A stretch of DNA of 64,000 bases from a virus (lineage: Duplodnaviria; Caudoviricetes). The number at the start of each line of letters is the position of its first letter. Within the stretch, counting starts at the first letter, position 1. The stretch lies in the IMG/VR virus record IMGVR_UViG_3300014204_000112, positions 128,001 through 192,000 of that record. One strand, written 5' to 3'. Shown one piece after another: positions 12,124 to 29,967 of the stretch. Under the pieces are notes generated by a model. It saw only the letters and a program-made list of their open reading frames with translations. It had not been told where the DNA came from and did no database searches. The translations under genes were made by a program, and so were the position numbers.

Positions 12124-12251
12124 CCGGAGAACATTGGAAAGAGTTGTTTTTGTTGCAAAAAGCGGATTCAAACCGCTGACATATTGTCCCCAAAACAATT
12201 GCCCTATCAGCTGGGCGATTTTCGCGAAGTAACTCTTGACCTTGCTACCGG
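12124..12251 (-). ncRNA. Y-RNA-like RNA 1 enclosing a complete tRNA-Pro(UGG)-like cloverleaf
   Basis: TAGCAA-N5-AGAGTTACTTCG ... CTCT..TTCT closing stem; D, anticodon and T arms in normal order. Confidence 0.75.
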
Positions 12252-12268
12252 ATTTCTTAAATTCAATT

Positions 12269-12469
12269 TCAAACCATGAGTTTGAAAATTCGCAGGTGAT
12301 TCAACAACTGCTCGTTACCCATCCATTCTGCATACCCATCAGCTTTTTGATAAGCTTCGTGAATGTTCAGGGCTTTCACGTAAAAGTGTAGAACTTCACC
12401 GCTCGTAAGGGTGATGTCTACCAGCCAATACTTGAGAGGCTGTTTCGGTTTTTCAGTTTGTGTTTTCAT
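12269..12469 (-). CDS. hypothetical protein
   Basis: ORF track, 66 aa between two Y-like RNAs. Confidence 0.5.
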   Translation of the reverse strand: MKTQTEKPKQPLKYWLVDITLTSGEVLHFYVKALNIHEAYQKADGYAEWMGNEQLLNHLRIFKLMV

Positions 12470-12530
12470 ATTGTCAGAACGATCTGACTCTACGAACTGT
12501 TGATTCTCTTCATGGTTTTTAATAAGTTTT

Positions 12531-12656
12531 TGGGAGAATGGGACAAGGGCTTTACGCCTCTCGGCGTTCGGCCGGACTTGAACCGGCGATCCATTGTGTT
12601 GCGAACAATTGCTTAAACCAACTAAGCTACGAAGTATCCCTACGCGTTGCTACCCA
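12531..12656 (-). ncRNA. Y-RNA-like RNA 2 enclosing a tRNA-like module (GCA loop)
   Basis: TAGCAA-N5-AGGGATACTTCG ... CCCT..TTCT (compensatory change); GGTTCAAGTCC T arm. Confidence 0.75.
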
Positions 12657-12671
12657 AATATTTTTAATGTC

Positions 12672-12682
12672 TTCAAAGAACA
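12672..12682 (-). promoter_or_regulatory. boxA-like antitermination element
   Basis: TGTTCTTTGAA just 5' of Y-like RNA 2. Confidence 0.45.
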
Positions 12683-12743
12683 AAGAAACCGTCGACTACT
12701 TTTCGAGGGAGGTACTTCATCTAATTTCCCTGTGTCCCCCTAG

Positions 12744-13129
12744 TATAAACCTCCGATTGATTCGGTAACGCATTTCTGCGCCTACGCATAGCGACGACCC
12801 GTTAGGGTGCATTTAAGACACCTCGATTTCAGCCAGCCATTTTTTAGCCCAACCTTTAACCTTCTGAATGTCGCTATACGTTTGCATGTCAACCAATTTC
12901 AAGTACCTCATAGCGTTGCACCTAAAATGATTATCATTATCAAGCCAAATATTTATAGCTCCATTGTCTCCAGCAGCGGTTACCGCTAATTCGGTTGTAA
13001 TTTTTTTTACTTGAAAAGCCTTATTAATAAAAATGGCTTTAGTCTCTTTTCTGTTTGTCCCTTCTAAATTATTAAGTGTTACCATAATTATGAACCTCCA
13101 ATTGATTCAGTAATGCATTATTGCACCTA
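12744..13129. repeat. 41-bp imperfect direct repeat (12744-12784 and 13089-13129) flanking an AT-rich 90-aa ORF (12813-13085, - strand)
   Basis: 34/41 identity by manual alignment. Confidence 0.7.
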
Positions 13130-13223
13130 AGCTACTTACCGTCTCACCTTTTCGGTTCAACAGCAATCCCGTTGTTTATCTTACTCCCACCTCGTCAGCG
13201 GTTTCAAAGAATTATTTATTTTT

Positions 13224-13332
13224 GAGGAGTGGCCAGAATTGAACTAGCAATCCGATTCAGCTTTTCCGAAGCCTTACTAACTTACCTAGGCTTTTAGCAG
13301 GTCCTTCGGGACTGTTTCGGCCCTTTTACTCC
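13224..13332 (-). ncRNA. tRNA-like structured RNA downstream of the TROVE gene
   Basis: GGAGT/ACTCC end pairing, T arm GCTAGTTCAATTCTGGC, non-tRNA core. Confidence 0.5.
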
Positions 13333-13337
13333 ATGCG

Positions 13338-13371
13338 AAAAAAACGAGGCCGGCCTGGAACCGGCCTCGGT
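13338..13371 (-). terminator. intrinsic terminator after the TROVE gene
   Basis: CGAGGCCGG/CCGGCCTCG hairpin followed by T7. Confidence 0.8.
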
Positions 13372-13380
13372 TAGTGAGTG

Positions 13381-15009
13381 TTAGATTACGATCTTACGTA
13401 CCTTGTCCAGGTGGTATGTAGGATTGAATTCGACGTTGGCGATGTCGTCGAACATCGAGAAGCCGTAACCGTAGTAGAAACGGACCTTGTCACCGATCAG
13501 CTGAGTTGTGCCGTAGGATGCCAAGTCTACAGAGTAGACGTATGGGTTTCCGACGTTCCTCAGGTAGTTCGTGTACGAAGAGTACGTGTTTCCACGGTTG
13601 CATTCGTTGTCAGAGAGGATGAACACCCTGTCGTACGCCTTTCCGGAACGTGCTGCCAGATCCCAAGCGGTGCTTAGGTTGGTTCCACCAAGGTTAGCAT
13701 TGAACGACCTTGCGATCGAGAATACGTCCTGGTTTGCGTTCCATGGGGTGAAGTGAGCGCTCGATCCGAACTGAATAACGTCAGCATTGGTTGCCTTCGC
13801 GATTGTTGCTCCGATCAAGGATGCCTTGTCAGCACATGACGTTGAGTACTGAGTCTTCCTGTTAGGGTCGACCATCTTCGTGGTCATGGATCCGGACCTG
13901 TCGATGATAACGAGGTTCCTTCCTGGCAATGCTTCCGCAAGGTTTGGAACGGATGCTTCGTAACCGATCAACAGTGCCTGTGCGATCTTCCTTCCGTCCA
14001 TCTTCGAGCCGAATTCTGCGAGCAGAATTTCGCCGGCCATGTCGATCTGGTAAGGCATGATCTTTGCCTGCCTGATAAGGTTTGGGTCCGACAGAACTGC
14101 GCACAGCTTGTCAATCGTTGCACGATCGGAGACCGTGTTCAGAATGCTCCTGATGTTACGCAGAGCTGCAAGAGTACCGAGCTTACCTTCGGTCAACAGA
14201 GCTCCCCAGTTTTCAGCCTTAGCTTCCTTGAGGATTTCTGCACCTTCAGCCTTGGTGATCTTACCTGCCTTTACGGCCTTTGCAACTTCCTGACCTGCGT
14301 CAGAGTTAGCAACTTCCCAGGTGTCGGCGGATACAGCCAAGCCCTTGATAACGGCATCGATTGCAGATACCCTTTCGCCCTTGAATTCAACGAATGCCCT
14401 CGACTGCTTTGGGTCAGGGTGAACGAGGTTGATAACGTCGATCAATGCTGACTTGTACTTCAGGATCGAGTATGCGTCGAGCCTTTCGATTGCATCAGCA
14501 AAACCCTTCTTCATAGAGTTGGTTGCCTTCGTCTTGTTCATAACCGAGAAACAGGCGATGATTTCGGCCATGTCGTCCGGACGGAAAATGGTTCCACCAG
14601 ACTGGTTCTTCTTGTTCCACAGTGAGTAGAACCTCTTCGCCCATTCGAGACCAGCGCAGTAAGGAGCGAGGTAGCTTGCTGCGAGGTGGTTGATCGACCT
14701 CATACCTTCACCAACGCAACGTGAGTACACGATGCACTGTGCGGTTAGGTAAGGATCTTCCTTTGCACAGGCAGTAACGATTCCCTTGAGTTCCCTCATG
14801 GTTTCATTTTCTGACCTGTAGAACTGGTTTTCCAGCTTCAAGGTGTTGAGCATTGTGATCAGTCTCAACCACTTGTCGATCGCATAAGCCGCGTGGCCCG
14901 AACGATTGACAGTGTTAGGCGTAGGAACTGCGTTAGCAGCTACTAACTTCGCCTTAGGTGCCGTCTTGGCAAGCTTAGTACGAAGATTTGCGTTTCTGAA
15001 CTTTGTCAT
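13381..15009 (-). CDS. TROVE/Ro60 (Rsr-like) RNA-binding protein with C-terminal vWA domain
   Basis: N-terminal NRSG..AY and FY motifs, ALRNI, IIDRSGSM MIDAS, GGTN, ILSDNE, VDLASYGT. Confidence 0.9.
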   Translation of the reverse strand: MTKFRNANLRTKLAKTAPKAKLVAANAVPTPNTVNRSGHAAYAIDKWLRLITMLNTLKLENQFYRSENETMRELKGIVTACAKEDPYLTAQCIVYSRCVGEGMRSINHLAASYLAPYCAGLEWAKRFYSLWNKKNQSGGTIFRPDDMAEIIACFSVMNKTKATNSMKKGFADAIERLDAYSILKYKSALIDVINLVHPDPKQSRAFVEFKGERVSAIDAVIKGLAVSADTWEVANSDAGQEVAKAVKAGKITKAEGAEILKEAKAENWGALLTEGKLGTLAALRNIRSILNTVSDRATIDKLCAVLSDPNLIRQAKIMPYQIDMAGEILLAEFGSKMDGRKIAQALLIGYEASVPNLAEALPGRNLVIIDRSGSMTTKMVDPNRKTQYSTSCADKASLIGATIAKATNADVIQFGSSAHFTPWNANQDVFSIARSFNANLGGTNLSTAWDLAARSGKAYDRVFILSDNECNRGNTYSSYTNYLRNVGNPYVYSVDLASYGTTQLIGDKVRFYYGYGFSMFDDIANVEFNPTYHLDKVRKIVI

Positions 15010-15051: not shown

Positions 15052-15612
15052 CTACTCATTGGTCTCTTCGCGCGAAAATATTCCAATATCTTTTTTCCTA
15101 CGGTGCTTTGCACTTTCGGACATTTTTGCTTTAGTTTCAGGCGAATGGGTTCTTCCTGTCCAATCGCACGGTTTTATTTTTCCTTCTTTATGCAAGCGTT
15201 TGAAAATATCGGAATTTCTGTCTTTTACTTCTTTTCTAAATTCCGGATCTTCTTTTAATTTTTTTGATCTAGCAAATCCGCCTGCTACTGCTCCTTTTTT
15301 ACAACCTTTCGGCGAAATAAATCCGCCGCCGCCGCCATTAACCAAATTCATACATAATCGGTCAGTTAGAAGCTCTTCATTTACCAATTGGTGTTCTCTG
15401 TCTTTCAGTTGTTCCAAATTGGGTAAAAATTCTAAGATTTCCTTAGTATGATTTTCCAATCCGTACTTATTGATAGAGTACTTTAGTTTTCTACCGCTTC
15501 CCATGTAACCATCATGTATATTTGAGGTTGCATGCATTCCTATGTAATACTTTTCAGTTACTTTACAAGTAATTTTGTAAATGTAAAAGATTGAATTAGG
15601 TTTTCTTGGCAT
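15052..15612 (-). CDS. GIY-YIG (Seg-like) endonuclease
   Basis: YIYKITC...YYIGMH, YMGSG, NUMOD3-like GRTHSPET. Confidence 0.85.
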   Translation of the reverse strand: MPRKPNSIFYIYKITCKVTEKYYIGMHATSNIHDGYMGSGRKLKYSINKYGLENHTKEILEFLPNLEQLKDREHQLVNEELLTDRLCMNLVNGGGGGFISPKGCKKGAVAGGFARSKKLKEDPEFRKEVKDRNSDIFKRLHKEGKIKPCDWTGRTHSPETKAKMSESAKHRRKKDIGIFSREETNE

Positions 15613-15667
15613 TTGTGTTCCATATTTTGGATTATTTATCCATCATTAGGTACACAAAATACCAGTG

Positions 15668-15742
15668 AGGCAAGGATGGGATTCGAACCCATGACTTTAC
15701 TGTTTTGCAGACAGTCCCCTTTGACCACTCGAGCACCTTGCC
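15668..15742 (-). tRNA. tRNA-Cys (GCA)
   Basis: Cloverleaf, ctGCAaa. Confidence 0.9.
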
Positions 15743-15755
15743 GTGCTTTACTCAG

Positions 15756-15829
15756 TATCCGCGGAGGGACTCGAACCCCCAACCCTTTGATCCGTAGTCA
15801 AAAGCTCTATCCAATTGAGCTACGCGGAC
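15756..15829 (-). tRNA. tRNA-Arg (ACG)
   Basis: Cloverleaf, ctACGga. Confidence 0.9.
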
Positions 15830-15845
15830 ATGTATTCTTTATTAG

Positions 15846-15917
15846 TAGCCAGCAAGCGAATCGAACGCTTATCTCAAGTTCCGGAAACTTGCGTTCTATC
15901 CGTTGAACTAGTCGGCC
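15846..15917 (-). tRNA. tRNA-Arg (CCG)
   Basis: Cloverleaf, ttCCGga. Confidence 0.85.
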
Positions 15918-15935
15918 ATATCATCTTGGGAAATG

Positions 15936-16011
15936 TGGTGGGATCGGAGGGAATCGAACCCTCAACCCCCTGATTAAGAGTCAGGTGCTCTGCCTGTTAA
16001 GCTACGAACCC
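15936..16011 (-). tRNA. tRNA-Lys (CTT)
   Basis: Cloverleaf, ctCTTaa, encoded CCA. Confidence 0.9.
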
Positions 16012-16019
16012 ATATTTAT

Positions 16020-16095
16020 TGGTGACCCAGGAAGGACTCGAACCTTCGACCCACAGCTTAGAAGGCTGTTGCTCTATCCACTGAGCTACAAGGCC
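16020..16095 (-). tRNA. tRNA-Arg (TCT)
   Basis: Cloverleaf, ctTCTaa, encoded CCA. Confidence 0.9.
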
Positions 16096-16106
16096 GGATT
16101 TTTTCG

Positions 16107-16181
16107 TGGTAGCCCAACCGAGAATCGAACTCGGATCTAAAGTTTAGGAAACTTCTATTCTATCCGTTGAACTATCAGGCC
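16107..16181 (-). tRNA. tRNA-Arg (CCT)
   Basis: Cloverleaf, ttCCTaa, encoded CCA. Confidence 0.9.
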
Positions 16182-16241
16182 ATATTTCTCGTTTACCTGG
16201 ATGATCCAGGCGGGATTATCTTGTGATAGTCACTGTAACTA

Positions 16242-16538
16242 TCATTCGATTACCTTCTGCCATTTGGCTAACTTCGTTTCGATCATTGATTTTATCTGAT
16301 CTTTCGACATTCCGATTCGAGTCATGAATGCAAGTATTACCAGTAGGACGTCGACTGCTTCTTCTCCAACATCTTCGATGCTCTTGTTCTTGTACTCGCA
16401 ACCGCATGCTTTTTCGTACGATAGAAGAGCTTCGGCAACTTCGCCGGATTCTTCCATCAGCTTCAGAAGCAACTGCGATGCAGTCTTGCCCTCTTTGGTT
16501 CTTGACACTTCCATTATTTTGTCGATCAATTCTTCCAT
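16242..16538 (-). CDS. MazG-like nucleotide pyrophosphohydrolase
   Basis: KLMEESGEVAEA...EEAVDV. Confidence 0.85.
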   Translation of the reverse strand: MEELIDKIMEVSRTKEGKTASQLLLKLMEESGEVAEALLSYEKACGCEYKNKSIEDVGEEAVDVLLVILAFMTRIGMSKDQIKSMIETKLAKWQKVIE

Positions 16539-16567
16539 GTTAACGATTTTTGATCTATTATACTGAG

Positions 16568-16606
16568 CGGAGGATGAGAGGCTCGAACTCTCGCGGCTTT
16601 TACACC
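16568..16606 (-). pseudogene. 3' half of a tRNA-Ser-like gene
   Basis: Variable arm, T arm (GAGAGTTCGAGCCTCTC) and 3' acceptor strand only. Confidence 0.55.
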
Positions 16607-16618
16607 ATTTACTTTTTG

Positions 16619-16707
16619 CGGCAGAGAGAGGATTCGAACCTCCGGGCCAGTTTTCACCGACCGACAGTTTAGCAAACTGCTACCTTAAACCTCTCGGTCA
16701 CTCTACC
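16619..16707 (-). tRNA. tRNA-Ser (GCT)
   Basis: ttGCTaa, long variable arm. Confidence 0.9.
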
Positions 16708-17356
16708 GTATAATATGTTTATCGATTAAAACTAGTTTATCCCATATTTCTAAATTACCAGTAAATTGACTCCATTTACTGCGGTCAAGTTCTGTAATAT
16801 ATCCTTTAACCTCAATAAACGTATTTGTCTCTAACAAATAAAAATCTGGGCAATATGTTCTGTTTTTACCAGTTGAATCTGTATAATCAAATCGTTTTTT
16901 ATTTCGTATCCATTTAACATTATGACTATCCAAAAATTTGGCAACCGCTAATTCCCATGAACCATCTAACTTAACAACTCCAGCAATAGGACTAACGTAA
17001 TCAATTTTAACTGTTCTGCCGGCTTTTGATTCCCAACCATTTGCATATCGTCGTTTCATTTCTTCACTGCGTTGTTCGCAGAAAATAGACGACATTTGTC
17101 GACCTGCTATTTTGCTAGATAATAATTTTTTAGTTTCAGGCTTATGGTGTCTACCTTTCCAAGTAGATCCATCATTTAATTTTTTAAAATGACTTGTTCG
17201 TATCCCACTATCATATTGTTCTTTGAGTTTAATTGTTATTTTTTCTCCAATTTTAGACTTAACGTCAGAACACAACTGATAATTTGGCATGCAGCAAACC
17301 TTTCCATTTTTCAATGTAAATTTTGCTTCTTCTTTTTGACAATACGAACACAGCAT
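16703..17356 (-). CDS. PD-(D/E)xK endonuclease
   Basis: GSWE, YCPDFYL, FIEVKG. Confidence 0.8.
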   Translation of the reverse strand: MLCSYCQKEEAKFTLKNGKVCCMPNYQLCSDVKSKIGEKITIKLKEQYDSGIRTSHFKKLNDGSTWKGRHHKPETKKLLSSKIAGRQMSSIFCEQRSEEMKRRYANGWESKAGRTVKIDYVSPIAGVVKLDGSWELAVAKFLDSHNVKWIRNKKRFDYTDSTGKNRTYCPDFYLLETNTFIEVKGYITELDRSKWSQFTGNLEIWDKLVLIDKHIIR

Positions 17357-17392
17357 ACGTTTTTATTTATTTATACTGGCCCCATAAGTAAA

Positions 17393-17550
17393 AAAGCAAA
17401 GAATGTTTCAAACAGCGTTTTTCTAATAGCGCTCTAGCCGTTGAGCTATCTGGGCATGGTCTTAAAAATTAGAGCCCAGAGCCGGATTCGAACCGACAAC
17501 CTCTCTCTTGGAATGAGAATCGAAGTAACTGTTCAGATTACTATTGCTTT
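17393..17550 (-). ncRNA. Y-RNA-like RNA 3, YrlA-type permuted order (T arm, looped acceptor stem, D arm)
   Basis: TAGTAA-N5-ACAGTTACTTCG ... CTGT..TTCT; GGTTCGAATCC, then TCTGGGC/GCCCAGA, then TAGCTCAACGGCTAGAGC. Confidence 0.8.
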
Positions 17551-18229
17551 ATTTTTTAATTTCGTATTGTTTTAATTCCGCTTCTCTCCAGATTTCCAAC
17601 TCATTATTTTTCAATACCTCAGTCCATTTGAGAAGATCAGTATCTTTTACATATCCTTTAGTTTCAACATAATAGAAGGATCCGTCATTTCTAAAAACCT
17701 TAAAATCCAAAAGATAGCTGTGAGATTTCCCATCCAAGCCAATATATTGAATTCGATCGTTAGTGTATTCCCAATCAAATATTGTTTTCTGTTCTTTCCA
17801 TCTGTCTAAGATTTTACATGCTCGCAATTCGTATGTACCTTGAATTTTGATGTCCTTGTAAACAAACCATTTTGTTTTTCCACCATATACCATTTTTCCA
17901 GAAGAGTACAGAGATTTTATCGCTTTGGACAAATTTAGTTTACGTTCGTCGCTAAATGAACAATGTGTATTTGTATAGATTTGTTGACAAGTTCGCGAAC
18001 AAAATTGAGATTGCCGTTTGGTCCACGGTCTAGAAAATTCATTTTTGCAATTTTTACAAATGATAATCAAGGATGGATGACCAGATCCCTTTAATTTGGT
18101 TGAAACTTTTTTGTTTATTAATTCTCTTTTTTCTTTTGAACTAAATCCACGTGAGCATTTTATTGAACAAAAACGACCACTTCCAAATGAACCATTGTGC
18201 TCTGTGCCACAATATTCGCAAGATTTCAT
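17549..18229 (-). CDS. PD-(D/E)xK (TnsA-N-like) endonuclease with Zn ribbons
   Basis: CEYC, FCS..C repeats, YLLDFKV, YVETKG. Confidence 0.8.
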   Translation of the reverse strand: MKSCEYCGTEHNGSFGSGRFCSIKCSRGFSSKEKRELINKKVSTKLKGSGHPSLIIICKNCKNEFSRPWTKRQSQFCSRTCQQIYTNTHCSFSDERKLNLSKAIKSLYSSGKMVYGGKTKWFVYKDIKIQGTYELRACKILDRWKEQKTIFDWEYTNDRIQYIGLDGKSHSYLLDFKVFRNDGSFYYVETKGYVKDTDLLKWTEVLKNNELEIWREAELKQYEIKK

Positions 18230-18291
18230 AAGATTTTATTTTTTTTTCTTATTTATCTTCGAACCTTCGACTTTTTGAGCCATCTAAAATG

Positions 18292-18367
18292 TGGGTGTCT
18301 AACCAGATTCGAACTGGTACTAAAAGTGCCACAAACTTTCGTGCTAACCATTAACACTATAAACACC
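18292..18367 (-). tRNA. tRNA-His (GTG)
   Basis: ttGTGgc, G-1 present. Confidence 0.9.
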
Positions 18368-23639: not shown

Positions 23640-23710
23640 GGAGAGAAAATCGGTAGAGTTGTTTGTTGTAAAACCAAAATTTACGAAGTAACTCTTTCCT
23701 TTACTACTCC
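23640..23710 (-). ncRNA. Y-RNA-like RNA 4, minimal (no tRNA module)
   Basis: TAGTAA-N5-AGAGTTACTTCG ... CTCT..TTCT, closed by GGAG/CTCC. Confidence 0.7.
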
Positions 23711-23713
23711 TAG

Positions 23714-23788
23714 TGGATACATGTGGGCTTCGAACCCACGACCTCCTGATTGCAAAACAGGCGCTCTTGCCATCTGAGCTAATGACCC
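23714..23788 (-). tRNA. tRNA-Ala (TGC), irregular acceptor stem
   Basis: ttTGCaa. Confidence 0.8.
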
Positions 23789-24417: not shown

Positions 24418-24473
24418 CTGCCGTACATTATTTTAGATTATTTATCTAAGACAAGGTACAAAAAATGCCGGGG

Positions 24474-24547
24474 TGGAGATTACGAGATTCGAACTCGTGA
24501 CATCCTGCTTGCAGGGCAGGCGCTCTGGCCATCTGAGCTAAATCCCC
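24474..24547 (-). tRNA. tRNA-Ala (TGC)
   Basis: ctGCAag region read as ccTGCaa; G3:U70. Confidence 0.9.
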
Positions 24548-24550
24548 ATA

Positions 24551-24658
24551 AGTAGAGAAAGTCGGAAGAGATAACAGGCGGTTTCGACACCGCGACTTTT
24601 GTTTAAGAGACAAATACTGGACTCCCAGCTCGAAGTAACTCTTTCCATTACTACTACT
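24551..24658 (-). ncRNA. Y-RNA-like RNA 5 with a Lys(CTT)-like anticodon arm and a T-like arm
   Basis: TAGTAA-N5-AGAGTTACTTCG ... CTCT..TTCT; TTTGT ctCTTaa ACAAA. Confidence 0.72.
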
Positions 24659-24661
24659 TTG

Positions 24662-24737
24662 TAGGGTAGGTGGGCTATGACCCCACGTGCTCTTAATCCC
24701 AAATCAAGCGAGATAAACCAGACTCCTCTACTACCCT
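24662..24737 (-). tRNA. tRNA-Pro (TGG)
   Basis: ttTGGga; variant T loop. Confidence 0.8.
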
Positions 24738-25381
24738 GTGATGTTATTTTTTAAGAATGTTTTTATTTGAGATTCCATAAGTTTGAAATTTCGGTGTTTC
24801 CATTGTATTCTTACAATTTTCCAACCTTCCTTTTTTATTATGTTATCTCGATTTACATCATATTCTTTTCTTTCCTCATGTTGTTTTCCATCTATTTCTA
24901 AAATTACTTTTTTATCAATGAATGCAAAATCAGCAAAAAATCTATTTACTTTATGATCTCTTATGTATTTTATTTGTTCTTTATTAAGAAGATCTATTGT
25001 AAATTGTTCAGCCCAAGACGGTTTCTTATTTAATCGTGAAGGATAACCATTATGTCTACCTTCTTTTGCTAATTGTTTTTGTGTATATGAAGAAGAACAA
25101 TTCCGCGAACAGAATTTATTAGTATTTGTTATTAACACTTCTTTTTCTTTTCCGCATACTAAACACGACATTATTTTTCTATCAATTAAATGAAGACCTT
25201 TTCTATTAGTTGACGTTCCTTTCAAAAATGATGGTTTTCCTAATAACGATTTACTAACCTTTTCGTTAATTTCTTTCCGTTTTTCTTTTGTACTAAATCC
25301 TCTAGAACATTTAGAAGAACAAAATCTGCCACTTCCATATTGACCATCATGTGGATTACCACAATTTTCGCAAAGTTTCAT
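24731..25381 (-). CDS. Vsr/DUF559-like endonuclease with Zn ribbons
   Basis: FFADFA, LEIDGKQH, DVNRD; N-terminus shared with 17549-18229. Confidence 0.8.
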   Translation of the reverse strand: MKLCENCGNPHDGQYGSGRFCSSKCSRGFSTKEKRKEINEKVSKSLLGKPSFLKGTSTNRKGLHLIDRKIMSCLVCGKEKEVLITNTNKFCSRNCSSSYTQKQLAKEGRHNGYPSRLNKKPSWAEQFTIDLLNKEQIKYIRDHKVNRFFADFAFIDKKVILEIDGKQHEERKEYDVNRDNIIKKEGWKIVRIQWKHRNFKLMESQIKTFLKNNITG

Positions 25382-25433
25382 AAGTTCGTTTATTGTTATT
25401 TATATTCGAACCTATCCACTTTTTTGATCCCGG

Positions 25434-25507
25434 TAGGCAGGGGTGGACTTGAACCACCGGCCTCTTCCTTATCAGAGAAGCGCTCTAACCAACTGAGCTA
25501 CATGCCC
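25434..25507 (-). tRNA. tRNA-Ile (GAT)
   Basis: ctGATaa. Confidence 0.9.
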
Positions 25508-25637
25508 GTATATGAAGCAACGATTTTCCATGTCAGTAGGACGTTGCCAACCTATCCAGCTTACGATCTGGCTCGCCGTTTGACCTTGCGGTCAGGGAAA
25601 GCGAGGAACTACGACCCGGTGGCCTGCCGGTACATCG

Positions 25638-25846
25638 AGCCTTTAGACGGATTCGAACCGCCGACTCCTCAACTACACCGTATGGTCTTGATTCGTGTAC
25701 ACTCCTCTTGATTTTCAGGTTCGTCTACCTCGAATCTCCTGGTTATCCATTCAAGTTGTCTTACGTACGACGCATTGAACCTTTCGCCAAAATTTCCAAG
25801 GTCCGGTCCTAATCCGGACGCTCTAAGCCGCTGAGCTAAGGGGATA
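25638..25846 (-). ncRNA. chimeric tRNA-like element with a ~130-nt structured insert
   Basis: 5' D and anticodon arms (atTAGga), 3' T arm; acceptor strands pair poorly. Confidence 0.4.
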
Positions 25847-25848
25847 TT

Positions 25849-26442
25849 TTATTTGTTAAAATTTATTTCGATGAATCTTTTTGTTTGAGTATTAGAAATG
25901 TTCCAACTTTTTGATAATTTCGTAATCCAACCGAATTTCTTTTCTATTGAATCATACTCATTTTTTCTTCTATTAAATTCGTCAGTTTTCATTTTTCCAG
26001 CTTCGCTTATCAATCTTTTAGATTCAGAAGTATGTCGTTTTCCTTTGAACGATGCAGCACCCAATCTTTTTCTTTTTGATAATGGAATTGGCCAACCCTT
26101 GTGTTTTCCTTCAATAACGTTTTTCTTTATTGATTCTCTTCTCTCTGGTCTGCTCCAAGCGTATTCCCAACCACCTTCTCCTCCAAGCTTGAGATTGTAA
26201 GTATCTTCTCTGTTAATAAAGAATTCATTTACTAGTTCTTTTTCTTTTTCTAGAGCTTCATTTTTCGTTGGAAAAACGTAAAGAATTTCTTTTCTGAAAT
26301 TTTGAATCCCATATTTTTTAATTGCCGCTTTTAACAATTTTCCAGAACCAAAATACTCGTCATTCAAATTTTTAGTTGAATGATAACCGATGTAAATTTT
26401 AGAATTTAAGCAATTTGTTATTTTGTAAATAGCGTAATACAT
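25849..26442 (-). CDS. GIY-YIG (Seg-like) endonuclease
   Basis: AIYKITN..NSKIYIGYH, YFGSG. Confidence 0.85.
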   Translation of the reverse strand: MYYAIYKITNCLNSKIYIGYHSTKNLNDEYFGSGKLLKAAIKKYGIQNFRKEILYVFPTKNEALEKEKELVNEFFINREDTYNLKLGGEGGWEYAWSRPERRESIKKNVIEGKHKGWPIPLSKRKRLGAASFKGKRHTSESKRLISEAGKMKTDEFNRRKNEYDSIEKKFGWITKLSKSWNISNTQTKRFIEINFNK

Positions 26443-26487
26443 TAACCGTAGTTTTGATTTTATTTATATGAATCTGCGGTTAATTTG

Positions 26488-26560
26488 AGCTTCCTGTAGG
26501 CTACGACCCCACGACCCTCTGAGTACAAATCAGATGCTCTACCAACTGAGCTAAGGAAGC
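26488..26560 (-). tRNA. tRNA-Thr (TGT)
   Basis: ttTGTac. Confidence 0.88.
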
Positions 26561-26570
26561 ATTTTTTGAG

Positions 26571-26643
26571 AGCCTCATACCCGATTCAAACGGGTGACCT
26601 ACTGAGTACGAATCAGTTGCTCTATCTGCTGAGCTAAAGAGGC
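26571..26643 (-). tRNA. tRNA-Thr (CGT)
   Basis: ttCGTac. Confidence 0.88.
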
Positions 26644-26644
26644 A

Positions 26645-27079
26645 TTATAAATCTTTGGCTGTTACGAATTCCTGTGAACTGATTCGGTTAGGACCTCCAT
26701 CGACGAAGTACGTAAGATTATTTCCAGTTCGTATTGCCCATAGTATCAACCAATTAAGAACAGCTGAATCCATTTTAGAAACTGCTTCTATAGCTTGATA
26801 ATGTTCAATCTTGCCAGTTTTCTTCGTCACTAGAACGTTGGACAAGCTCGGTTTCATCCACATTGGAAAGTCATCATTCGTTAACCATTCGCACTTGTAA
26901 GTTATGCAAGGATCGATCGGTCTATTCTCGTAAATCGTGCAACCTTTTCCGATTTCTACAAAGTGACAAGGTTTTCCTCGATAGAATCTTTCTCCATGAG
27001 CTACTCCGTGTAACCAACCTTCACAACATTTCGTGCAATCTCCACAAGTTCTTTTTGGAACATTAACAGTTTTTTCCAT
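26645..27079 (-). CDS. Cys-cluster (CxxCxxCC, YkgJ-like) protein
   Basis: CGDCTKCC...C...CTIYENRP..PC. Confidence 0.7.
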   Translation of the reverse strand: MEKTVNVPKRTCGDCTKCCEGWLHGVAHGERFYRGKPCHFVEIGKGCTIYENRPIDPCITYKCEWLTNDDFPMWMKPSLSNVLVTKKTGKIEHYQAIEAVSKMDSAVLNWLILWAIRTGNNLTYFVDGGPNRISSQEFVTAKDL

Positions 27080-27126
27080 TCTAGTAGTTTTACTTATTAT
27101 ACAGAAGGACCGTAACAAGTTTTATT

Positions 27127-27202
27127 TGGCACCCGCGGAAGGACTTGAACCCTCAACCCTCGGTTTTGGAGACCGGTACTCTACCAATTGAGCTACACGG
27201 AT
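27127..27202 (-). tRNA. tRNA-Trp (CCA)
   Basis: ctCCAaa, CCA end. Confidence 0.9.
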
Positions 27203-27207
27203 AAGTT

Positions 27208-27316
27208 TGATTTGAGAATGGTAAAAAGAGTTTTTTACTAAGCAAGGTTTGGTGCTTGGTGTTGGATTCGAACCAACGATAACCATCGATGTATCTCTTT
27301 TTTTTGCTACAAATCA
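27208..27316 (-). ncRNA. Y-RNA-like RNA 6 with a T arm and one further hairpin
   Basis: TAGCAA-N5-AGAGATACATCG ... CTCT..TTCT; GTTGGTTCGAATCCAAC. Confidence 0.7.
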
Positions 27317-27317
27317 G

Positions 27318-27394
27318 CGGGCCCAAACGGATTCGAACCGTCCTGAATCTTCTGAGTGACAGTCAGACAGCCACACCTAGCAGCCCCTGAGCCC
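27318..27394 (-). tRNA. tRNA-Asp (GTC)
   Basis: ctGTCac. Confidence 0.88.
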
Positions 27395-27922
27395 ATGTTC
27401 TTTTTCTTCAATATTCTGTAGTTTCCAAACTTCAAACTGAATATTTTGTTCAGATAATGCTTTCCATTTACACTTATCGATTTCAGTTTCAAATCCTTTA
27501 ACTTCAATGTAATAGGTAGATCCATTAATATTGATGACTTTGAAATCCAATAGATAATTATGAACTTCGTTATCTGGACCTATGTATTGTATTCGGTCAT
27601 TTGTGTATTCCCAATCTCTTATTAAGTAGTTGGCCTTCCAATTATCAAGAATTTTACAAACTCGTAATTCAAAGGATCCCTGTACCTTGATTGATTTATA
27701 TTGATACCATTTAGAAGTTCCACCAGCTACATAATTATGACCTAACCTATAAGCTTGTTTATGAACTTCTGACCAATTTACTTTATTATGGTTTGACCAA
27801 CTTCCTCGTAATTTACTAGAACAGCTAACTGAGCAACATTTTTGATTTCTTTTATTCCAGTGAACTGAGAATTTAGTCAAACAATATTTACAAATTAACT
27901 GCACATCTTCGTGTTTTGTCAT
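27377..27922 (-). CDS. PD-(D/E)xK (TnsA-N-like) endonuclease
   Basis: QGSFELR, YLLDFKV, YIEVKG; paralog of 17549-18229. Confidence 0.8.
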   Translation of the reverse strand: MTKHEDVQLICKYCLTKFSVHWNKRNQKCCSVSCSSKLRGSWSNHNKVNWSEVHKQAYRLGHNYVAGGTSKWYQYKSIKVQGSFELRVCKILDNWKANYLIRDWEYTNDRIQYIGPDNEVHNYLLDFKVININGSTYYIEVKGFETEIDKCKWKALSEQNIQFEVWKLQNIEEKEHGLRGC

Positions 27923-27968
27923 GGCACTTTATTTATACGCGCCTCGTCTTTCGCCGTGAAGTTAAATG

Positions 27969-28044
27969 TGGTAGGCTCGAAGGGACTTGAACCCTTGACT
28001 CCCGCCTTAAAAGGGCGGTACTCTACCAACTGAGTTACGAACCC
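27969..28044 (-). tRNA. tRNA-Lys (TTT)
   Basis: ctTTTaa, CCA. Confidence 0.9.
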
Positions 28045-28460
28045 GTAATCGCTTCTCGAATCTTTTGTTTATGTTCATCCGATTTAGCTTTACCCCTATT
28101 TCCTTTACCACCGTTTGACGAACGTTTTCTCAAAAGTTCTTTAGCTTTAACTTTGCCATGTTTATCAATCATTCGTTGATAGATTGATGGCGCTCCATTT
28201 TCGTATTCGTCAATTTTATTATCTGACTTAGTCCCCCAATACATGTGATTAGGATTACTACATTTTGGATTGTTACAGCCGTGGCAAACAACGATGCTAT
28301 TTCCATTGACTGGCATTGTCGTATCGTAGTGGTATGCAACCAGAGCAACTAACTGAGTAGAGTATTTCAATCCACGTTCGTGGCAAGGTTCCTCTAACTT
28401 TAGCATTTGTTTTCTTTGTGCTCTAGTGTTTTCGATTACAAAATTTTCAACTGATTTCAT
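28035..28460 (-). CDS. HNH/His-Cys-type endonuclease
   Basis: VCHGCNNPKCSNPNHMYWGT..DN. Confidence 0.8.
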   Translation of the reverse strand: MKSVENFVIENTRAQRKQMLKLEEPCHERGLKYSTQLVALVAYHYDTTMPVNGNSIVVCHGCNNPKCSNPNHMYWGTKSDNKIDEYENGAPSIYQRMIDKHGKVKAKELLRKRSSNGGKGNRGKAKSDEHKQKIREAITGS

Positions 28461-28541
28461 GTTTTAGTTTATATATCTAGAGCAATCTCTTAAAAGTACA
28501 GCACTCTAGCGATAATTGGTCTTTGTTCAATAAATAACGGC

Positions 28542-28739
28542 ATGGTTAATGAACGTTATTTTATGTGCTCCAAGTGCGGAACAGTCGTCGACTCGTTCGG
28601 CAAAGCAGTGGATGCAAAGAAACTAGAAATAGACATAAAATCTTTAAGAAGTACCACTTGTAAGATTTGTCTTGACTATCAAATCTGGGAAAACAATACT
28701 TACTTTTCGAGGACTGATCGGGACTCGAACCCGAGATAA
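28542..28739 (+). CDS. small Zn-ribbon protein antisense to the tRNA array
   Basis: CSKC...CKIC; ATAAATA late-promoter-like motif just upstream on the + strand. Confidence 0.5.
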   Translation: MVNERYFMCSKCGTVVDSFGKAVDAKKLEIDIKSLRSTTCKICLDYQIWENNTYFSRTDRDSNPR

Positions 28740-28779
28740 CCAACTGGATGGGGCGCGCACCAACCACCACGTTCAGCCC
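28710..28779 (-). pseudogene. degenerate tRNA (anticodon arm poorly paired; TCC or CCA)
   Basis: GGGCTGA/TCAGTCC acceptor and TCGGGTTCGAGTCCCGA T arm intact. Confidence 0.5.
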
Positions 28780-28790
28780 ATAAATACAAA

Positions 28791-28925
28791 CAAGAACACT
28801 GGATAGAGGAATTTGATTGATGTCAATTTTACAGATTGATGACTTAGACCGCTCGTCCAACGACCCGAAAGCCGTACGGGATTCGAACCCGTGATCGAAG
28901 TAACTCTATGACCTTACTATGCTTG
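28791..28925 (-). ncRNA. Y-RNA-like RNA 7, permuted at the variable loop (T arm, looped acceptor, D arm, GTA anticodon arm)
   Basis: TAGTAA-N6-AGAGTTACTTCG ... CTCT..TTCT. Confidence 0.78.
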
Positions 28926-29373
28926 ATTTCTTATTTACAATGTTTTTTGCTCCGAACGTATGTGTTTGTGAATGACAGTTTGGACACAAAATTCTCAGAT
29001 TTTGAAGTCTGTGATTTCGGTTATTTCCGTCAATATGATCGACTTGTAATGATAAAGGTAGACCGTTCCATTCTGCTGGAGTTCCGCATTCTTCACATCG
29101 ATCCTCTTTATAACCTTCCAGTATCAATCGTCTTTTTAATTTCGATGTCGGATATTCTGGGTGTTTTCCTTCAAGAATGTCTAGCAATTTGAATGCTACT
29201 CCTCCGGTTCTTTTCATTTTTCGTAACTTGACTTCAATTTGTATTCCTAACAAATTGCAATATTTGGTTAGGGTTACTCTACTGATTCCAGTTACTTCTG
29301 AAAGTTCCAAAACAGAGCTAACGTTCTTGGCATTTTCATTGATTTTGTCTACGATTTCTTGGTTTAGCCGCAT
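28906..29373 (-). CDS. HNH endonuclease
   Basis: CEECG, LQVDHIDGN..NHRLQNLRILCPNCH; start moved to MRLNQ. Confidence 0.9.
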   Translation of the reverse strand: MRLNQEIVDKINENAKNVSSVLELSEVTGISRVTLTKYCNLLGIQIEVKLRKMKRTGGVAFKLLDILEGKHPEYPTSKLKRRLILEGYKEDRCEECGTPAEWNGLPLSLQVDHIDGNNRNHRLQNLRILCPNCHSQTHTFGAKNIVNKKSSIVRS

Positions 29374-29426
29374 TGCTTTATTTTTATTTATATGCGGTCT
29401 GTTTACCAAAACCTCTGTAAACTACG

Positions 29427-29508
29427 TGGGATGTGATGGAGTCGAACCACCCGAGCTTTCACAACAGATTTACAGTCTGCCCCGCTACCATCTACGGAAT
29501 AACATCCC
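29427..29508 (-). tRNA. tRNA-Tyr (GTA)
   Basis: ctGTAaa, variable arm. Confidence 0.9.
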
Positions 29509-29549
29509 ATTGTCCCTCTATTTTTGATTTCCTGGAGGGTGCGGAAGGT

Positions 29550-29669
29550 GCGGGAAGGTGAGATTCGAACTCACGAGATCAAATTGACAGTTTGATTGTT
29601 TCCGATGCAACTCTTATCATTGCTATCCTTTCAGAAGAAATTCGACAGAGCGTTTTGAATTTCTTCCCC
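29550..29669 (-). ncRNA. tRNA/Y-RNA chimera A (D arm replaced by the Y-like stem; GTC loop)
   Basis: GGGAAG/CTTCCC acceptor, CTCT..TTCT-loop-TAGCAA-N5-AGAGTTGCATCG, ctGTCaa, T arm. Confidence 0.75.
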
Positions 29670-29708
29670 GAGTGTACCTGTTTTTACTGTACAGGAGAAC
29701 AGTGTAGG

Positions 29709-29826
29709 AGGGGGAAGTTGGATTTGAACCAACGATCAAATTTTCAAGGTTTGATTGTGCCGATGAAACTCTTATCATTGCTATCATCGCTGAAGAAAGT
29801 CGACAGAGTCGTTTTTACTTTCCCCC
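29709..29826 (-). ncRNA. tRNA/Y-RNA chimera B
   Basis: GGGGGAA/TTCCCCC acceptor, same internal module, T arm GTTGGTTCAAATCCAAC. Confidence 0.75.
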
Positions 29827-29842
29827 ATGTTTTATTAAGTAT

Positions 29843-29967
29843 TGGCGAGGGAGGCTGGATTTGAACCAACATAATCAAGTTTTCAATTTGACTGTTACCG
29901 ATGCAACTCTATTCATTGCTATCATTGCTGAAGAAAGTCGGATAGAGCATTGTGTATATGCTCCCTC
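29843..29967 (-). ncRNA. tRNA/Y-RNA chimera C with encoded CCA (GAA loop)
   Basis: GAGGGAG/CTCCCTC-G-CCA, same internal module. Confidence 0.78.

What the first reader, a model, noticed from the sequence alone, without database searches (positions are those of the whole stretch)
12124..29967. One Ro60/TROVE protein and ten Y-like RNAs that attach the same stem to tRNA modules in different permutations
Seen: ten elements share TAGYAA-N5(6)-AGAGTTACTTCG (or close variants) paired with CTCT-N-TTCT, with compensatory changes (AGGG/CCCT at 12531, ACAG/CTGT at 17393). The cargo differs. A tRNA module in normal order is enclosed at 12124 (UGG), 12531 (GCA) and 24551 (CUU, partial). The YrlA-like order T-acceptor-D occurs at 17393, and permutation at the variable loop with a GUA arm at 28791. 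There is a T arm plus one hairpin at 27208, no cargo at 23640, and the stem replaces the D arm at 29550, 29709 and 29843. A TROVE gene (13381-15009) sits among them. Established: bacterial Rsr binds Y RNAs, YrlA mimics tRNA, and Rsr loci are linked to RNA repair and decay. Inference: this is a combinatorial library of Ro-bound tRNA mimics, possibly anticodon-specific decoys or adaptors against tRNA-targeting immunity. That the shared stem binds Ro is inferred from proximity, not shown.
Basis: partly seen in the sequence, partly recalled or inferred. Interest (0 to 1): 0.9.

Follow-up and report, generated by a model that had tools for sequence, protein, structure and literature searches.

The report
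Phage Ro60 with handle-tagged tRNA mimics
A 214-kb uncultured phage encodes the ring-shaped RNA-binding protein Ro60 and ten small RNAs that attach one conserved two-helix "handle" to tRNA look-alikes at different points of the cloverleaf; this much-expanded form of the known Ro60/Y-RNA partnership also occurs in crAss-like and huge phages, and I found no published description.

Summary
All ten elements lie on the minus strand among 41 tRNA genes around a true Ro60 gene (13381-15009).

**The handle**
- Each element has an outer helix P1, a bulged U, two pairs (UAG with UUCU), an internal loop, an inner helix P3, then UUACUUCG.
- The same handle occurs on the Ro strand in 28 related phage loci (Ro 37-99% identical).
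- It also sits directly upstream of Ro in a 635-kb phage and two crAss-like phages.
- Covariation is strong, for example UAG/UUCU 107 times against UGG/UUCC 9 times, never mixed.
- A scan of 185,579 prokaryote genomes gave only chance hits.

**The cargo**
- Cargo falls into conserved classes: hairpin only, full cloverleaf, truncated cloverleaf, and two circular permutations, one of them YrlA-like.
- A sixth class is an "inside-out" form with a free 7-bp acceptor end, in which the handle takes the D-arm's place.
- Anticodon triplets change fast between orthologues, while U33 and A37 stay fixed.

**Reading**
- These are most likely Ro60-bound Y RNAs.
- Binding, discrete transcripts and any decoy or adaptor role remain untested.
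- This scan has noted the same kind of system before on other phage DNA.

The parts
13381..15009 (-). Ro60 orthologue (542 aa): TROVE helical ring plus a vWA domain with the MIDAS motif D370-x-S372-x-S374.
   Evidence: Pfam gives VWA_2 at 4.9e-6 and TROVE at 1e-4, the latter below its cut-off. PHROG 850 'RNA-binding protein' scores 3.9e-30. phmmer to PDB 9KOP/9L5Y gives 7.6e-9 over residues 38-520. The AlphaFold2 model has pLDDT 75.5, and Foldseek ranks 1-13 are all Ro60 structures, E 4e-14 to 1e-10. Invariant residues are listed.
12124..12251 (-). E1, class B: the handle encloses a full cloverleaf with anticodon UGG, an A/U-rich 7-bp acceptor stem and an A-rich 3' tail without CCA. The D and T loops are degenerate in this copy.
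   Evidence: ARAGORN calls tRNA-Pro at 12152-12226 and Rfam tRNA scores 45.1 bits. The class alignment A8 of 11 orthologues has 22 pairs with compensatory changes.
12529..12658 (-). E2, class A: the handle (P3 AGGG/CCCU) encloses a D arm, an anticodon arm (GCA), a T arm and an extra tetraloop-capped hairpin (GAGA in this copy, GAAA or GCAA in most orthologues). The conserved CUUCG forms the 5' strand of a 4-5-bp acceptor-like stem.
   Evidence: Rfam tRNA scores 45.8 bits over model positions 4-67. Alignment A1 of 19 orthologues gives 20 of 26 pairs compensatory. On the handle pairs, 92% of cells are paired against 80% in shuffles, with 0 of 500 shuffles as high.
17393..17550 (-). E3, class D (YrlA-like): the handle (P3 ACAG/CUGU) encloses an anticodon-like hairpin (UCC), a T arm, an acceptor stem closed by a loop, and a D arm.
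   Evidence: Rfam YrlA RF02553 scores 31.9 bits against a gathering score of 69, local E 1.9e-5. Orthologues are listed, and the related class D' alignment A3 is.
23640..23710 (-). E4, class 0: the handle encloses only a 25-nt hairpin with an A-rich tail (a minimal Y-like RNA).
   Evidence: Fold. Thirteen class-0 relatives have cargo of 13-36 nt. The same minimal form sits directly upstream of Ro in distant phages.
24550..24659 (-). E5: the handle takes the place of the acceptor stem. The cargo is a D-like hairpin, an anticodon arm (CUU) and a T arm.
   Evidence: Alignment A7 of 8 sequences has 21 of 28 pairs with compensatory changes.
27208..27316 (-). E6: the handle (variant AUACAUCG) encloses a T arm plus one further hairpin.
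   Evidence: Fold. Elements with the same handle variant and cargo length (58 nt) occur in L009 and L012, with P1 of 6-8 bp; no alignment of this class was made.
28787..28925 (-). E7, class C: the handle encloses a T arm, an acceptor stem closed by a short loop, a D arm and an anticodon arm (GUA). This is a tRNA body permuted at the variable loop.
   Evidence: Alignment A2 of 13 orthologues has 28 of 34 pairs with compensatory changes.
29843..29967 (-). U1, inside-out class: acceptor 5' strand GAGGGAG, linker, handle 3' half, P1 (UCA-GCAA-UGA), handle 5' half, anticodon arm (GAA), T arm, then CUCCCUC-G-CCA.
   Evidence: Sequence. The 3' half lies 10 nt upstream of the 5' half with P3 paired 4 of 4. 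The acceptor pairs 7 of 7, the tail is GCCA, and P1 pairs 3 of 3 with a GNRA loop.
29707..29826 (-). U2, inside-out class: acceptor GGGGGAA/UUCCCCC, P1 UCA-GCGA-UGA, a 9-nt anticodon-like loop and a T arm.
29547..29669 (-). U3, inside-out class: the acceptor pairs 6 of 7, P1 is UCU-GAAA-GGA, with an anticodon arm (GUC) and a T arm. A hairpin and a weak tRNA-Tyr follow it.
   Evidence: The tRNA-Tyr at 29426-29508 scores 30.2 bits.

Best explanation
These are phage Y RNAs, the small non-coding partner RNAs of Ro60.

**The handle.** The conserved handle runs: outer helix P1, bulged U, A-U and G-C pairs (UAG with UUCU), an internal loop carrying YAA, a 2-bp P2, the inner helix P3, then UUACUUCG. 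It is the docking site for the phage's own Ro60 ring. It is portable: it can close the RNA ends, or it can be capped by a GNRA loop and inserted into a tRNA body.

**The cargo.** The cargo presents a tRNA-shaped surface (elbow, anticodon loop, sometimes a free acceptor end) to tRNA-binding proteins. Each RNA would therefore tether or gate Ro60, and whatever nuclease Ro60 recruits, towards tRNA-handling machinery during infection.

**Shown here:**
- the RNA structures and their conservation;
- the genomic linkage of the handle to Ro;
- that the protein is a Ro60.

**Inferred:**
- that Ro60 binds the handle;
- that the RNAs accumulate as discrete species;
- what the tRNA-like cargo engages.
For: **1. 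The family is real.**
- The window plus 28 related loci hold 157 5' halves. Of these, 106 have a downstream 3' half with at least 5 contiguous P1 pairs, against 5 of 157 on reversed sequence and 0 of 157 on shuffled sequence.
- When the 3' half is chosen without looking at P1, P1 positions 1-6 are 85-97% paired, against 39-75% with shuffled partners.
- At least 17 complementary P3 sequence pairs occur (the 3' halves were found by requiring P3 to pair).
- UAG goes with UUCU 107 times and UGG with UUCC 9 times, with no mixed cases.
- In P1 there are 29 G.U pairs against 3 A.C, which marks the transcribed strand.

**2. Every cargo class examined is conserved with compensatory changes**.

**3. The handle is linked to Ro.**
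- All 28 Ro loci (37-99% identity) carry 1-8 copies, on the Ro strand only.
- An exact-pattern scan of 2.9 million viral contigs gave 10 hits. Five are on contigs with Ro. Four are on fragments at most 14% complete; for the two larger ones the elements sit at the contig edge and point off the contig. One record was not held.
- Handle RNAs lie directly upstream of Ro, with no tRNA array nearby, in G002/G003 (Ro about 32% identical), in LR745206.1, and in the crAss-like phages csAssE-Sib and cr111_1.
- The same scan of 185,579 prokaryote genomes gave 8 hits. None has a 3' half, a Ro gene or a tRNA array nearby (one stray tRNA call in one locus), so they are chance matches.

**4. Variants change together within a genome.** All four copies in L030/L033 read UAGUCA, and all three in csAssE-Sib read UGGUGA with UUCC. 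This fits a shared reader acting in trans.

**5. The anatomy matches validated Y RNAs.**
- A terminal stem, bulge and stem with a conserved purine-rich 5'-strand motif about 10 nt from the 5' end resembles the CGAA motif of phiLo Yrl1/2, which bind phiLo Ro60 in EMSA and cryo-EM (PMC12135203). It also resembles GNCGAA of YrlA (PMC4201824).
- E3 and its relatives hit Rfam YrlA at 32-39 bits.

**6. The handle is not a general tRNA leader.** Of the 41 tRNAs ARAGORN calls, only one lies inside a handle; the rest of the array's tRNAs have none.
Against:
- The handle sequence is neither the published GNCGAA/CGAA motif nor the metazoan GGUCCGA helix.
- Rfam Y_RNA gives no hit, and YrlA scores less than half its gathering score.
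- Some residues that contact RNA in phiLo Ro60 are not conserved here, judging by eye from the alignment.
- Class B and the inside-out class look as if they could be processed into chargeable tRNAs, or used as such. That would make the handle a maturation or regulatory element for those classes.
- No contig that is near complete was available to test 'handle without Ro'.
- A Vibrio phage with a related Ro (24% identity) shows no such motif by simple pattern.
Confidence: 0.7

Rival explanations
1. The handle is a maturation or regulatory module for phage tRNA-like transcripts. It would be a leader-trailer duplex read by an RNase (RNase III, E or P) or a chaperone, keeping some tRNAs inactive or routing them for processing. 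Ro is merely a neighbour in the tRNA operon.
For: - Class B elements enclose complete cloverleaves with 7-bp acceptor stems.
- Inside-out units have free acceptor ends, some with encoded CCA.
- The elements are packed head to tail in polycistronic arrays.
- An RNase P RNA-like element lies in the same array, with 29.3 bits to RNaseP_arch.
Against: - Only one of the 41 tRNAs that ARAGORN calls lies inside a handle; the rest of the array's tRNAs have none.
- Classes 0, A, C and D cannot yield a tRNA. They have hairpin-only cargo, or acceptor stems capped by loops as short as 4 nt.
- The handle occurs next to Ro in phages with no nearby tRNA genes.
Confidence: 0.15
2. The handle is read by a different conserved protein, of the phage or the host (for example PNPase, an Hfq- or La-like protein, or a tRNA enzyme), and not by Ro60.
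For: - The most conserved block, UUACUUCG, has no counterpart in known Ro-binding sites.
- The published phiLo Yrl RNAs also bind host PNPase on their own (PMC12135203).
Against: - Among the loci whose neighbours were read, Ro is the gene that recurs beside the handle: the window clade, G002/G003, G005, LR745206.1, csAssE-Sib and cr111_1. Where the flanking genes are annotated they differ; no systematic comparison of neighbouring genes was made.
Confidence: 0.1
3. The elements are permuted or split tRNA genes whose termini are cut and ligated at the handle to give functional tRNAs, as in the circularly permuted tRNA genes of Cyanidioschyzon.
For: - Classes C and D have exactly the gene order of permuted tRNA genes.
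- The genome encodes an RNA-ligase-family protein, PF09414.
Against: - The acceptor stems of classes C and D are sealed by 4-8-nt loops with no discriminator base or CCA, which leaves little for RNase P or RNase Z to open.
- No bulge-helix-bulge motif is evident.
- No RtcB was found in the genome, which is 83% complete.
- YrlA has the same order and is a stable Ro-bound RNA (PMC4201824).
- Anticodons drift freely between orthologues.
Confidence: 0.03
4. The repeats are DNA-level features, such as target sites of the many homing endonucleases or remnants of a mobile element, and not RNAs.
For: The array is full of GIY-YIG, HNH and Vsr-like endonuclease ORFs.
Against: - The covariation preserves base pairs, not sequence.
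- G.U pairs outnumber A.C by 29 to 3, so selection acts on one transcribed strand.
- All copies are co-oriented with Ro and the tRNAs.
Confidence: 0.02

Closest known systems
YrlA-type bacterial and phage Y RNAs with Rsr/Ro60 (Rfam RF02553; Chen et al. 2014, PMC4201824)
   Same: - They are encoded beside Ro60 on the same strand.
- The RNA ends pair into a stem that carries a conserved 5'-strand motif.
- The effector domain mimics tRNA in the order T arm, closed acceptor, D arm. E3 and its relatives have this order and score 32-39 bits on the model.
   Different: - The handle sequence and architecture differ: UAGYAA/UUCU with a bulged U plus UUACUUCG, against GNCGAA.
- Scores are below the gathering threshold.
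- There are ten RNAs per genome, not one or two.
- The same handle is joined to tRNA bodies at four or more different positions.
- The cargo ranges from a bare hairpin to a full cloverleaf.
- An inside-out form has free acceptor ends.
Thermus phage phiLo Ro60 with Yrl1 and Yrl2 (PMC12135203; PDB 9KOP, 9L5Y)
   Same: - It is the closest solved relative of this protein.
- The Y-like RNAs lie just upstream of a phage Ro gene.
- They share the stem, bulge and stem design, with a short conserved motif in the 5' strand.
   Different: - The phiLo RNAs carry CGAA, have no tRNA-like cargo, and number two.
- In phiLo, binding is shown experimentally. Here it is not.
Metazoan Y RNAs with Ro60
   Same: A terminal helix with a single bulged nucleotide and conserved flanking pairs serves as the presumed protein site, and a variable module lies distal to it.
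   Different: There is no sequence match, since Rfam Y_RNA gives no hit. The origin is a phage operon, and the cargo is tRNA-like.
Circularly permuted tRNA genes (Cyanidioschyzon merolae)
   Same: Classes C and D have the 3' part of the tRNA before the 5' part.
   Different: The acceptor stems are sealed by short loops, no BHB motif is seen, and anticodons are not conserved. These are probably mimics and not tRNA precursors.

Membership tests
Ro60 / TROVE protein family | Helical TROVE ring followed by a vWA domain, with full-length similarity to solved Ro60 structures. | tested here: met
   phmmer to 9KOP/9L5Y gives 7.6e-9 over residues 38-520. Foldseek ranks 1-13 are all Ro60 structures with 513-578 aligned columns. 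PHROG 850 scores 3.9e-30.
Ro60 / TROVE protein family | Pfam TROVE (PF05731) at or above the gathering score. | tested here: not met
   The score is 22.1 bits against a cut-off of 23, and only one stretch (260-322) matches. The sequence is diverged, and the fold evidence outweighs this.
Ro60 / TROVE protein family | MIDAS motif DxSxS in the vWA domain. | tested here: met
   D370, S372 and S374 are invariant in 13 relatives and align to DVSGS of phiLo Ro60. VWA_2 scores 27.6 bits against a cut-off of 27.
Y RNA (operational definition) | Encoded adjacent to a Ro60 gene on the same strand. | tested here: met
   This holds in the window, in 28 related loci, and in at least five more distant Ro lineages.
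Y RNA (operational definition) | The 5' and 3' ends pair into a bulged helix with conserved nucleotides. | tested here: met
   P1, a bulged U and the AG/CU pairs show covariation. In the inside-out class the helix is capped instead.
Y RNA (operational definition) | Bound by Ro60 in vivo or in vitro. | not testable with these tools
YrlA (Rfam RF02553) | Covariance-model score at or above the gathering score of 69 bits. | tested here: not met
   E3 scores 31.9 bits and relatives in L024 score 36.9 and 38.6 bits. The other nine elements give no hit, or a weaker one.
YrlA (Rfam RF02553) | tRNA-like domain in the order T arm, closed acceptor stem, D arm. | tested here: met
   This is met for E3 and class D'. 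It is not the arrangement of E1, E2, E4-E7 or U1-U3.
YrlA (Rfam RF02553) | GNCGAAN0-1G motif near the 5' end (Chen et al. 2014). | tested here: not met
   The equivalent position reads UAGYAA (TAGCAA 49, TAGTAA 46 of 119 non-redundant elements). The resemblance is limited to R-Y-A-A.
tRNA | Cloverleaf with a free 7-bp acceptor end, a D arm, an anticodon arm and a T arm. | tested here: not met
   No element has all four. E1 has the cloverleaf but its ends are buried in the handle. U1-U3 have free acceptor ends but no D arm. The other elements are truncated or permuted.
Circularly permuted tRNA gene | An acceptor region that can be processed (discriminator, leader and trailer between the 3' and 5' strands) and a BHB motif at the termini. 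| tested here: not met
   The acceptor stems are capped by loops as short as GAAA. The termini form the handle and not a BHB motif.

The most novel reading that the evidence does not exclude
The handle is a portable Ro60-docking module that phages graft onto tRNA bodies, producing a set of anticodon-diversified tRNA mimics that evolves quickly. These mimics would act in the conflict over tRNAs. They could be decoys for host anticodon nucleases or tRNA-modifying enzymes, or adaptors that bring Ro60 and an associated exonuclease to damaged tRNAs. The inside-out class, which has a genuine acceptor end, may even be aminoacylated and so carry Ro60 to the translation machinery.
Probability: 0.25. 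Interest if true: 0.92.

Novelty: new variant of a known kind. Interest (0 to 1): 0.8.

Why it matters
**The open question.** Ro60 and its Y RNAs are conserved from bacteria to humans. Why bacterial Y RNAs mimic tRNA is still not known.

**What this locus adds.**
- The Ro-associated handle and the tRNA-like part are separable modules.
- Evolution has recombined them in at least six ways.
- It keeps the shape of the anticodon loop while letting the triplet change.
- In one class it leaves a free acceptor end.
- Together these give a natural series of variants for asking what the tRNA-like domain engages.

**Wider reach.**
- The handle is also found in crAss-like gut phages and in a 635-kb phage.
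- In at least one published crAss-like genome, two 'tRNA genes' are in fact cargo inside such handles. This affects tRNA annotation and codon-usage arguments for these phages.

**If the RNAs do act on tRNA-targeting defences,** they would be a new class of RNA-based counter-defence.

Tried and rejected
- **Rfam search.** At E up to 10 over 11.5-31.5 kb there is no Y_RNA hit, and only sub-threshold YrlA hits. No ribozyme or other known family covers the handle.
- **Prokaryote genome scan.** The scan of 185,579 genomes for TAGCAA-N5-6-AGAGTTACTTCG gave 8 matches. None has a 3' half, a Ro gene or a tRNA array nearby, so they are chance matches. No cellular source of this handle variant was found.
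- **Vibrio phage phiKT1024.** Its Ro is 24% identical. No handle was seen near the gene by pattern search, so either the family does not extend that far or the motif has changed.
- **Alignment of class 0 and the inside-out class.** MAFFT plus RNAalifold put the long-range strands out of register. Scripts anchored on the motifs were used instead. In one search my regular expression mis-registered P3, so only its acceptor and P1 numbers are used.
- **No covariance model of the handle was built.** Regex plus pairing, with controls, answered the question.
- **RNA-repair context.** No RtcB and no CCA-adding enzyme were found in the 83%-complete genome. One RNA-ligase-family ORF lies 30 kb away.
- **The permuted pre-tRNA reading was rejected,** because the acceptor stems are sealed.
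- **The stretch downstream of the Ro terminator (13212-13338)** folds no better than shuffles, z -1.08.

Full report
**Setting**

The window is bases 128001-192000 of a 213,922-bp IMG/VR virus record, estimated 83% complete. Everything relevant is on the minus strand.
- ARAGORN finds 41 tRNA genes there, and Rfam confirms 39.
- Between them lie many small ORFs with GIY-YIG, HNH, NUMOD3 or DUF559 (Vsr-like) endonuclease signatures.
- The 542-aa ORF at 13381-15009 is a Ro60.

**The protein is a Ro60**
- Pfam hits are weak: VWA_2 is just above its cut-off and TROVE just below.
- PHROG 850 scores 3.9e-30.
- phmmer aligns residues 38-520 to the two solved structures of Thermus phage phiLo Ro60, E 7.6e-9, including the MIDAS DxSGS motif.
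- An AlphaFold2 model built on 13 relatives has mean pLDDT 75.5.
- Its 13 best Foldseek matches are all Ro60 structures from phage, Deinococcus, Xenopus and human, aligned over the full length.

- The 5' motif occurs ten times, all on the minus strand between 12225 and 29922, and nowhere else in the genome.
- Reading the RNA sense strand, each copy has a partner 3' half.
- The consensus over 99 non-redundant elements is:
  - 5' side: P1, R, U-A-G-Y-A-A, N4-7, P3 (A-N-N-G), then U-U-A-C-U-U-C-G, then the cargo;
  - 3' side: an A-rich stretch ending in ACA, the P3 complement, N7-8 (often CAAYU), U-U-C-U, then the P1 complement.
- The A and G of UAG pair with the U and C at the end of UUCU, which leaves the first U bulged. 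RNAalifold predicts these two pairs on its own in two class alignments.
- Across 121 elements UAG goes with UUCU 107 times and UGG with UUCC 9 times, never mixed.

**Is it more than chance?**

I fetched 28 viral loci that encode relatives of this Ro, at 37-99% identity.
- All of them have large tRNA arrays on the same strand.
- All carry 1-8 copies of the 5' motif, on the Ro strand only.
- Of 157 5' halves, 106 have a downstream 3' half with at least five contiguous P1 pairs. The controls give 5 on reversed sequence and 0 on shuffled sequence.
- When the 3' half is picked from P3 and TTCY alone, P1 positions 1-6 are 85-97% paired. With shuffled partners they are 39-75% paired, with a maximum of 0.85 in 500 shuffles. 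At positions 3 and 4 all four Watson-Crick pair types are common.
- P3 takes at least 17 complementary forms; the 3' halves were found by requiring P3 to pair.
- In P1, G.U pairs outnumber A.C by 29 to 3, so selection acts on the transcribed strand.
- On the class A alignment, the handle pairs are 92% paired against 80% in column shuffles (0 of 500 as high) and about 50% when the partners are slid.

**Cargo classes**

All ten window elements have counterparts in relatives, and the five classes I aligned show compensatory changes in the tRNA arms.

| Class | Window element | Cargo | Evidence |
|---|---|---|---|
| 0 | E4 | Hairpin of 13-36 nt | |
| A | E2 | D arm, anticodon arm, T arm and an extra tetraloop-capped hairpin (mostly GNRA) | |
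| B | E1 | Complete cloverleaf, A/U-rich 7-bp acceptor, A-rich tail | |
| E5 type | E5 | tRNA body with no acceptor stem | |
| C | E7 | T arm, closed acceptor, D arm, anticodon arm | |
| D | E3 | Anticodon-like hairpin, T arm, closed acceptor, D arm | |
| E6 type | E6 | T arm plus a hairpin | |

- In class A the conserved CUUCN forms the 5' strand of a short acceptor-like stem. Its last base covaries with its partner, G-C 10 against U-A 8.
- Class D is the YrlA arrangement. It scores 32-39 bits on Rfam YrlA, against a gathering score of 69.

**The tandem units at 29547-29967**

These three units are best read 'inside out', as another first-reader note also suggested.
- The 3' half of the handle lies 10 nt upstream of the 5' half. 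The two are joined by a 3-bp P1 and a GNRA tetraloop.
- This capped handle sits where the D arm would be, in a molecule with a free 7-bp acceptor stem, an anticodon arm and a T arm.
- Unit 1 ends CUCCCUC-G-CCA.
- The same form occurs in loci whose Ro is only 37% identical, with compensatory P3 (CUAA/UUAG) and P1 (CUG/CAG).

**Linkage to Ro rather than to tRNA arrays**
- An exact-pattern scan of the viral collection gave 10 hits.
  - Five lie on contigs with a Ro gene. These include lineages whose Ro is only 32-41% identical and which have no tRNAs nearby; there, two minimal handle RNAs sit 200-350 nt upstream of Ro.
  - Four lie on fragments at most 14% complete. In the two larger ones the elements sit at the contig edge and point off the contig.
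  - One record was not held.
- Two handle RNAs lie just upstream of Ro in the 635-kb phage LR745206.1.
- One lies upstream of Ro in crAss-like phage cr111_1.
- Three lie upstream of the 'Ro sixty-related protein' of crAss-like phage csAssE-Sib. There the loops read UGGUGA and UUCC, and two of the cargos are annotated in GenBank as tRNA-Tyr and tRNA-Lys.
- Within a genome, derived handle variants are shared by all copies: UAGUCA in L030/L033 and UGGUGA in csAssE-Sib. That is what a common reader acting in trans would produce.
- The same pattern scanned over 185,579 prokaryote genomes gave 8 hits with no 3' half, no Ro gene and no tRNA array, so they are chance matches.

**Comparison with what is known**
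- Chen et al. 2014 (PMC4201824) reported YrlA-like RNAs beside Ro in 254 bacteria and 22 phages, with a GNCGAA motif near the 5' end.
- The phiLo study (PMC12135203) showed that a phage Ro60 binds two upstream Y-like RNAs through a stem, bulge and stem that carries CGAA.
- The present handle has the same layout. Its short conserved R-Y-A-A motif sits in the 5' strand at the same distance from the end, but the sequence is different. It also has an extra invariant block, UUACUUCG, and it fails the Rfam YrlA threshold.
- Papers on crAss-like phages mention the TROVE gene as an early gene but mention no partner RNAs.
- My literature searches found no description of multi-copy, handle-tagged tRNA mimics.
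- This scan has noted the same kind of system on other phage DNA, including a close relative of this phage. Those notes are unchecked leads and were not used as evidence.

**Mechanism**

*Best-supported reading.* The handle is the Ro60 docking site, and the cargo presents a tRNA-shaped surface to tRNA-binding proteins.

*Evidence that bears on the role of the cargo.*
- Anticodon positions 34 and 35 are among the most variable columns: ranks 5-6 of 125 in class A, and rank 1 of 140 in class C.
- U33 and A37 are among the most conserved columns.
- Nineteen class A orthologues carry nine different anticodons, including the stop-codon-reading UUA and UCA.
- So the shape of the loop is kept but its identity is free or diversifying. 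That fits mimicry better than decoding, but it does not show what the mimics engage.

*Context.*
- Only one of the 41 tRNAs that ARAGORN calls lies inside a handle, so the handle is not a general processing signal.
- The genome lacks RtcB and a CCA-adding enzyme but has an RNA-ligase-family ORF.

*Not shown.* Binding, discrete transcripts and function all remain untested.

**Verdict**

The locus is a new variant of the Ro60/Y-RNA kind. It does not meet the Rfam criterion for YrlA membership.

Noticed in passing
window 20710-20867 (-): A sub-threshold match to archaeal RNase P RNA (RF00373, 29.3 bits, E 4.2e-5) lies inside the tRNA array. It may be a minimal phage-encoded RNase P RNA.
   Followed up: no
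window 6513-6586 (-): This tRNA has anticodon CUA (ARAGORN calls it 'tRNA-Pyl'), which makes it an amber-suppressor-type tRNA. Several handle-borne mimics in relatives carry UUA or UCA. Together these hint at stop-codon recoding in this phage group.
   Followed up: no
L053 (OR575929.1, phage csAssE-Sib) 4440-4900: The tRNA-Tyr and tRNA-Lys annotated in GenBank directly upstream of the 'Ro sixty-related protein' are cargo inside handle stems (variant UGGUGA...UUCC). A third, YrlA-ordered element precedes them.
   Followed up: partly
L052 (LR745206.1) 7490-7700; L048 (G002) 1155-1340: Two minimal handle RNAs lie immediately upstream of Ro genes that are about 31-32% identical to this one, with no tRNA genes in the fetched stretches.
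   Followed up: partly
window 15052-30764 (-): At least a dozen free-standing endonuclease-like ORFs (GIY-YIG/SegE-like, HNH, DUF559/Vsr-like, NUMOD3) are interleaved with the tRNAs and handle RNAs. They spread the handle RNAs over 18 kb. In relatives, by contrast, the RNAs are packed tightly around Ro.
   Followed up: partly
G000:C1:~96000-98500 (outside the window; L064): A large ORF (at least 735 aa) has an N-terminal RNA_ligase (PF09414) domain and an uncharacterised remainder. No RtcB or CCA-adding enzyme was found in the genome.
   Followed up: partly
window 29426-29508 (-): A weak tRNA-Tyr (30.2 bits; it scores higher, 36.7 bits, on the tRNA-Sec model) follows the third inside-out unit, after a hairpin.
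   Followed up: no
window 13340-13375 (-): A GC-rich hairpin followed by a run of seven U lies directly after the Ro stop codon and looks like an intrinsic terminator. If it is one, E2 and E1 downstream would need read-through or their own promoter.
   Followed up: no
relatives, e.g. L025 11651, L032 11707, L013 1800: A distinct minimal subclass with UGG...UUCC and 25-34-nt cargo sits immediately downstream of Ro in many relatives. It is absent from this window and from its closest relative, L009.
   Followed up: partly
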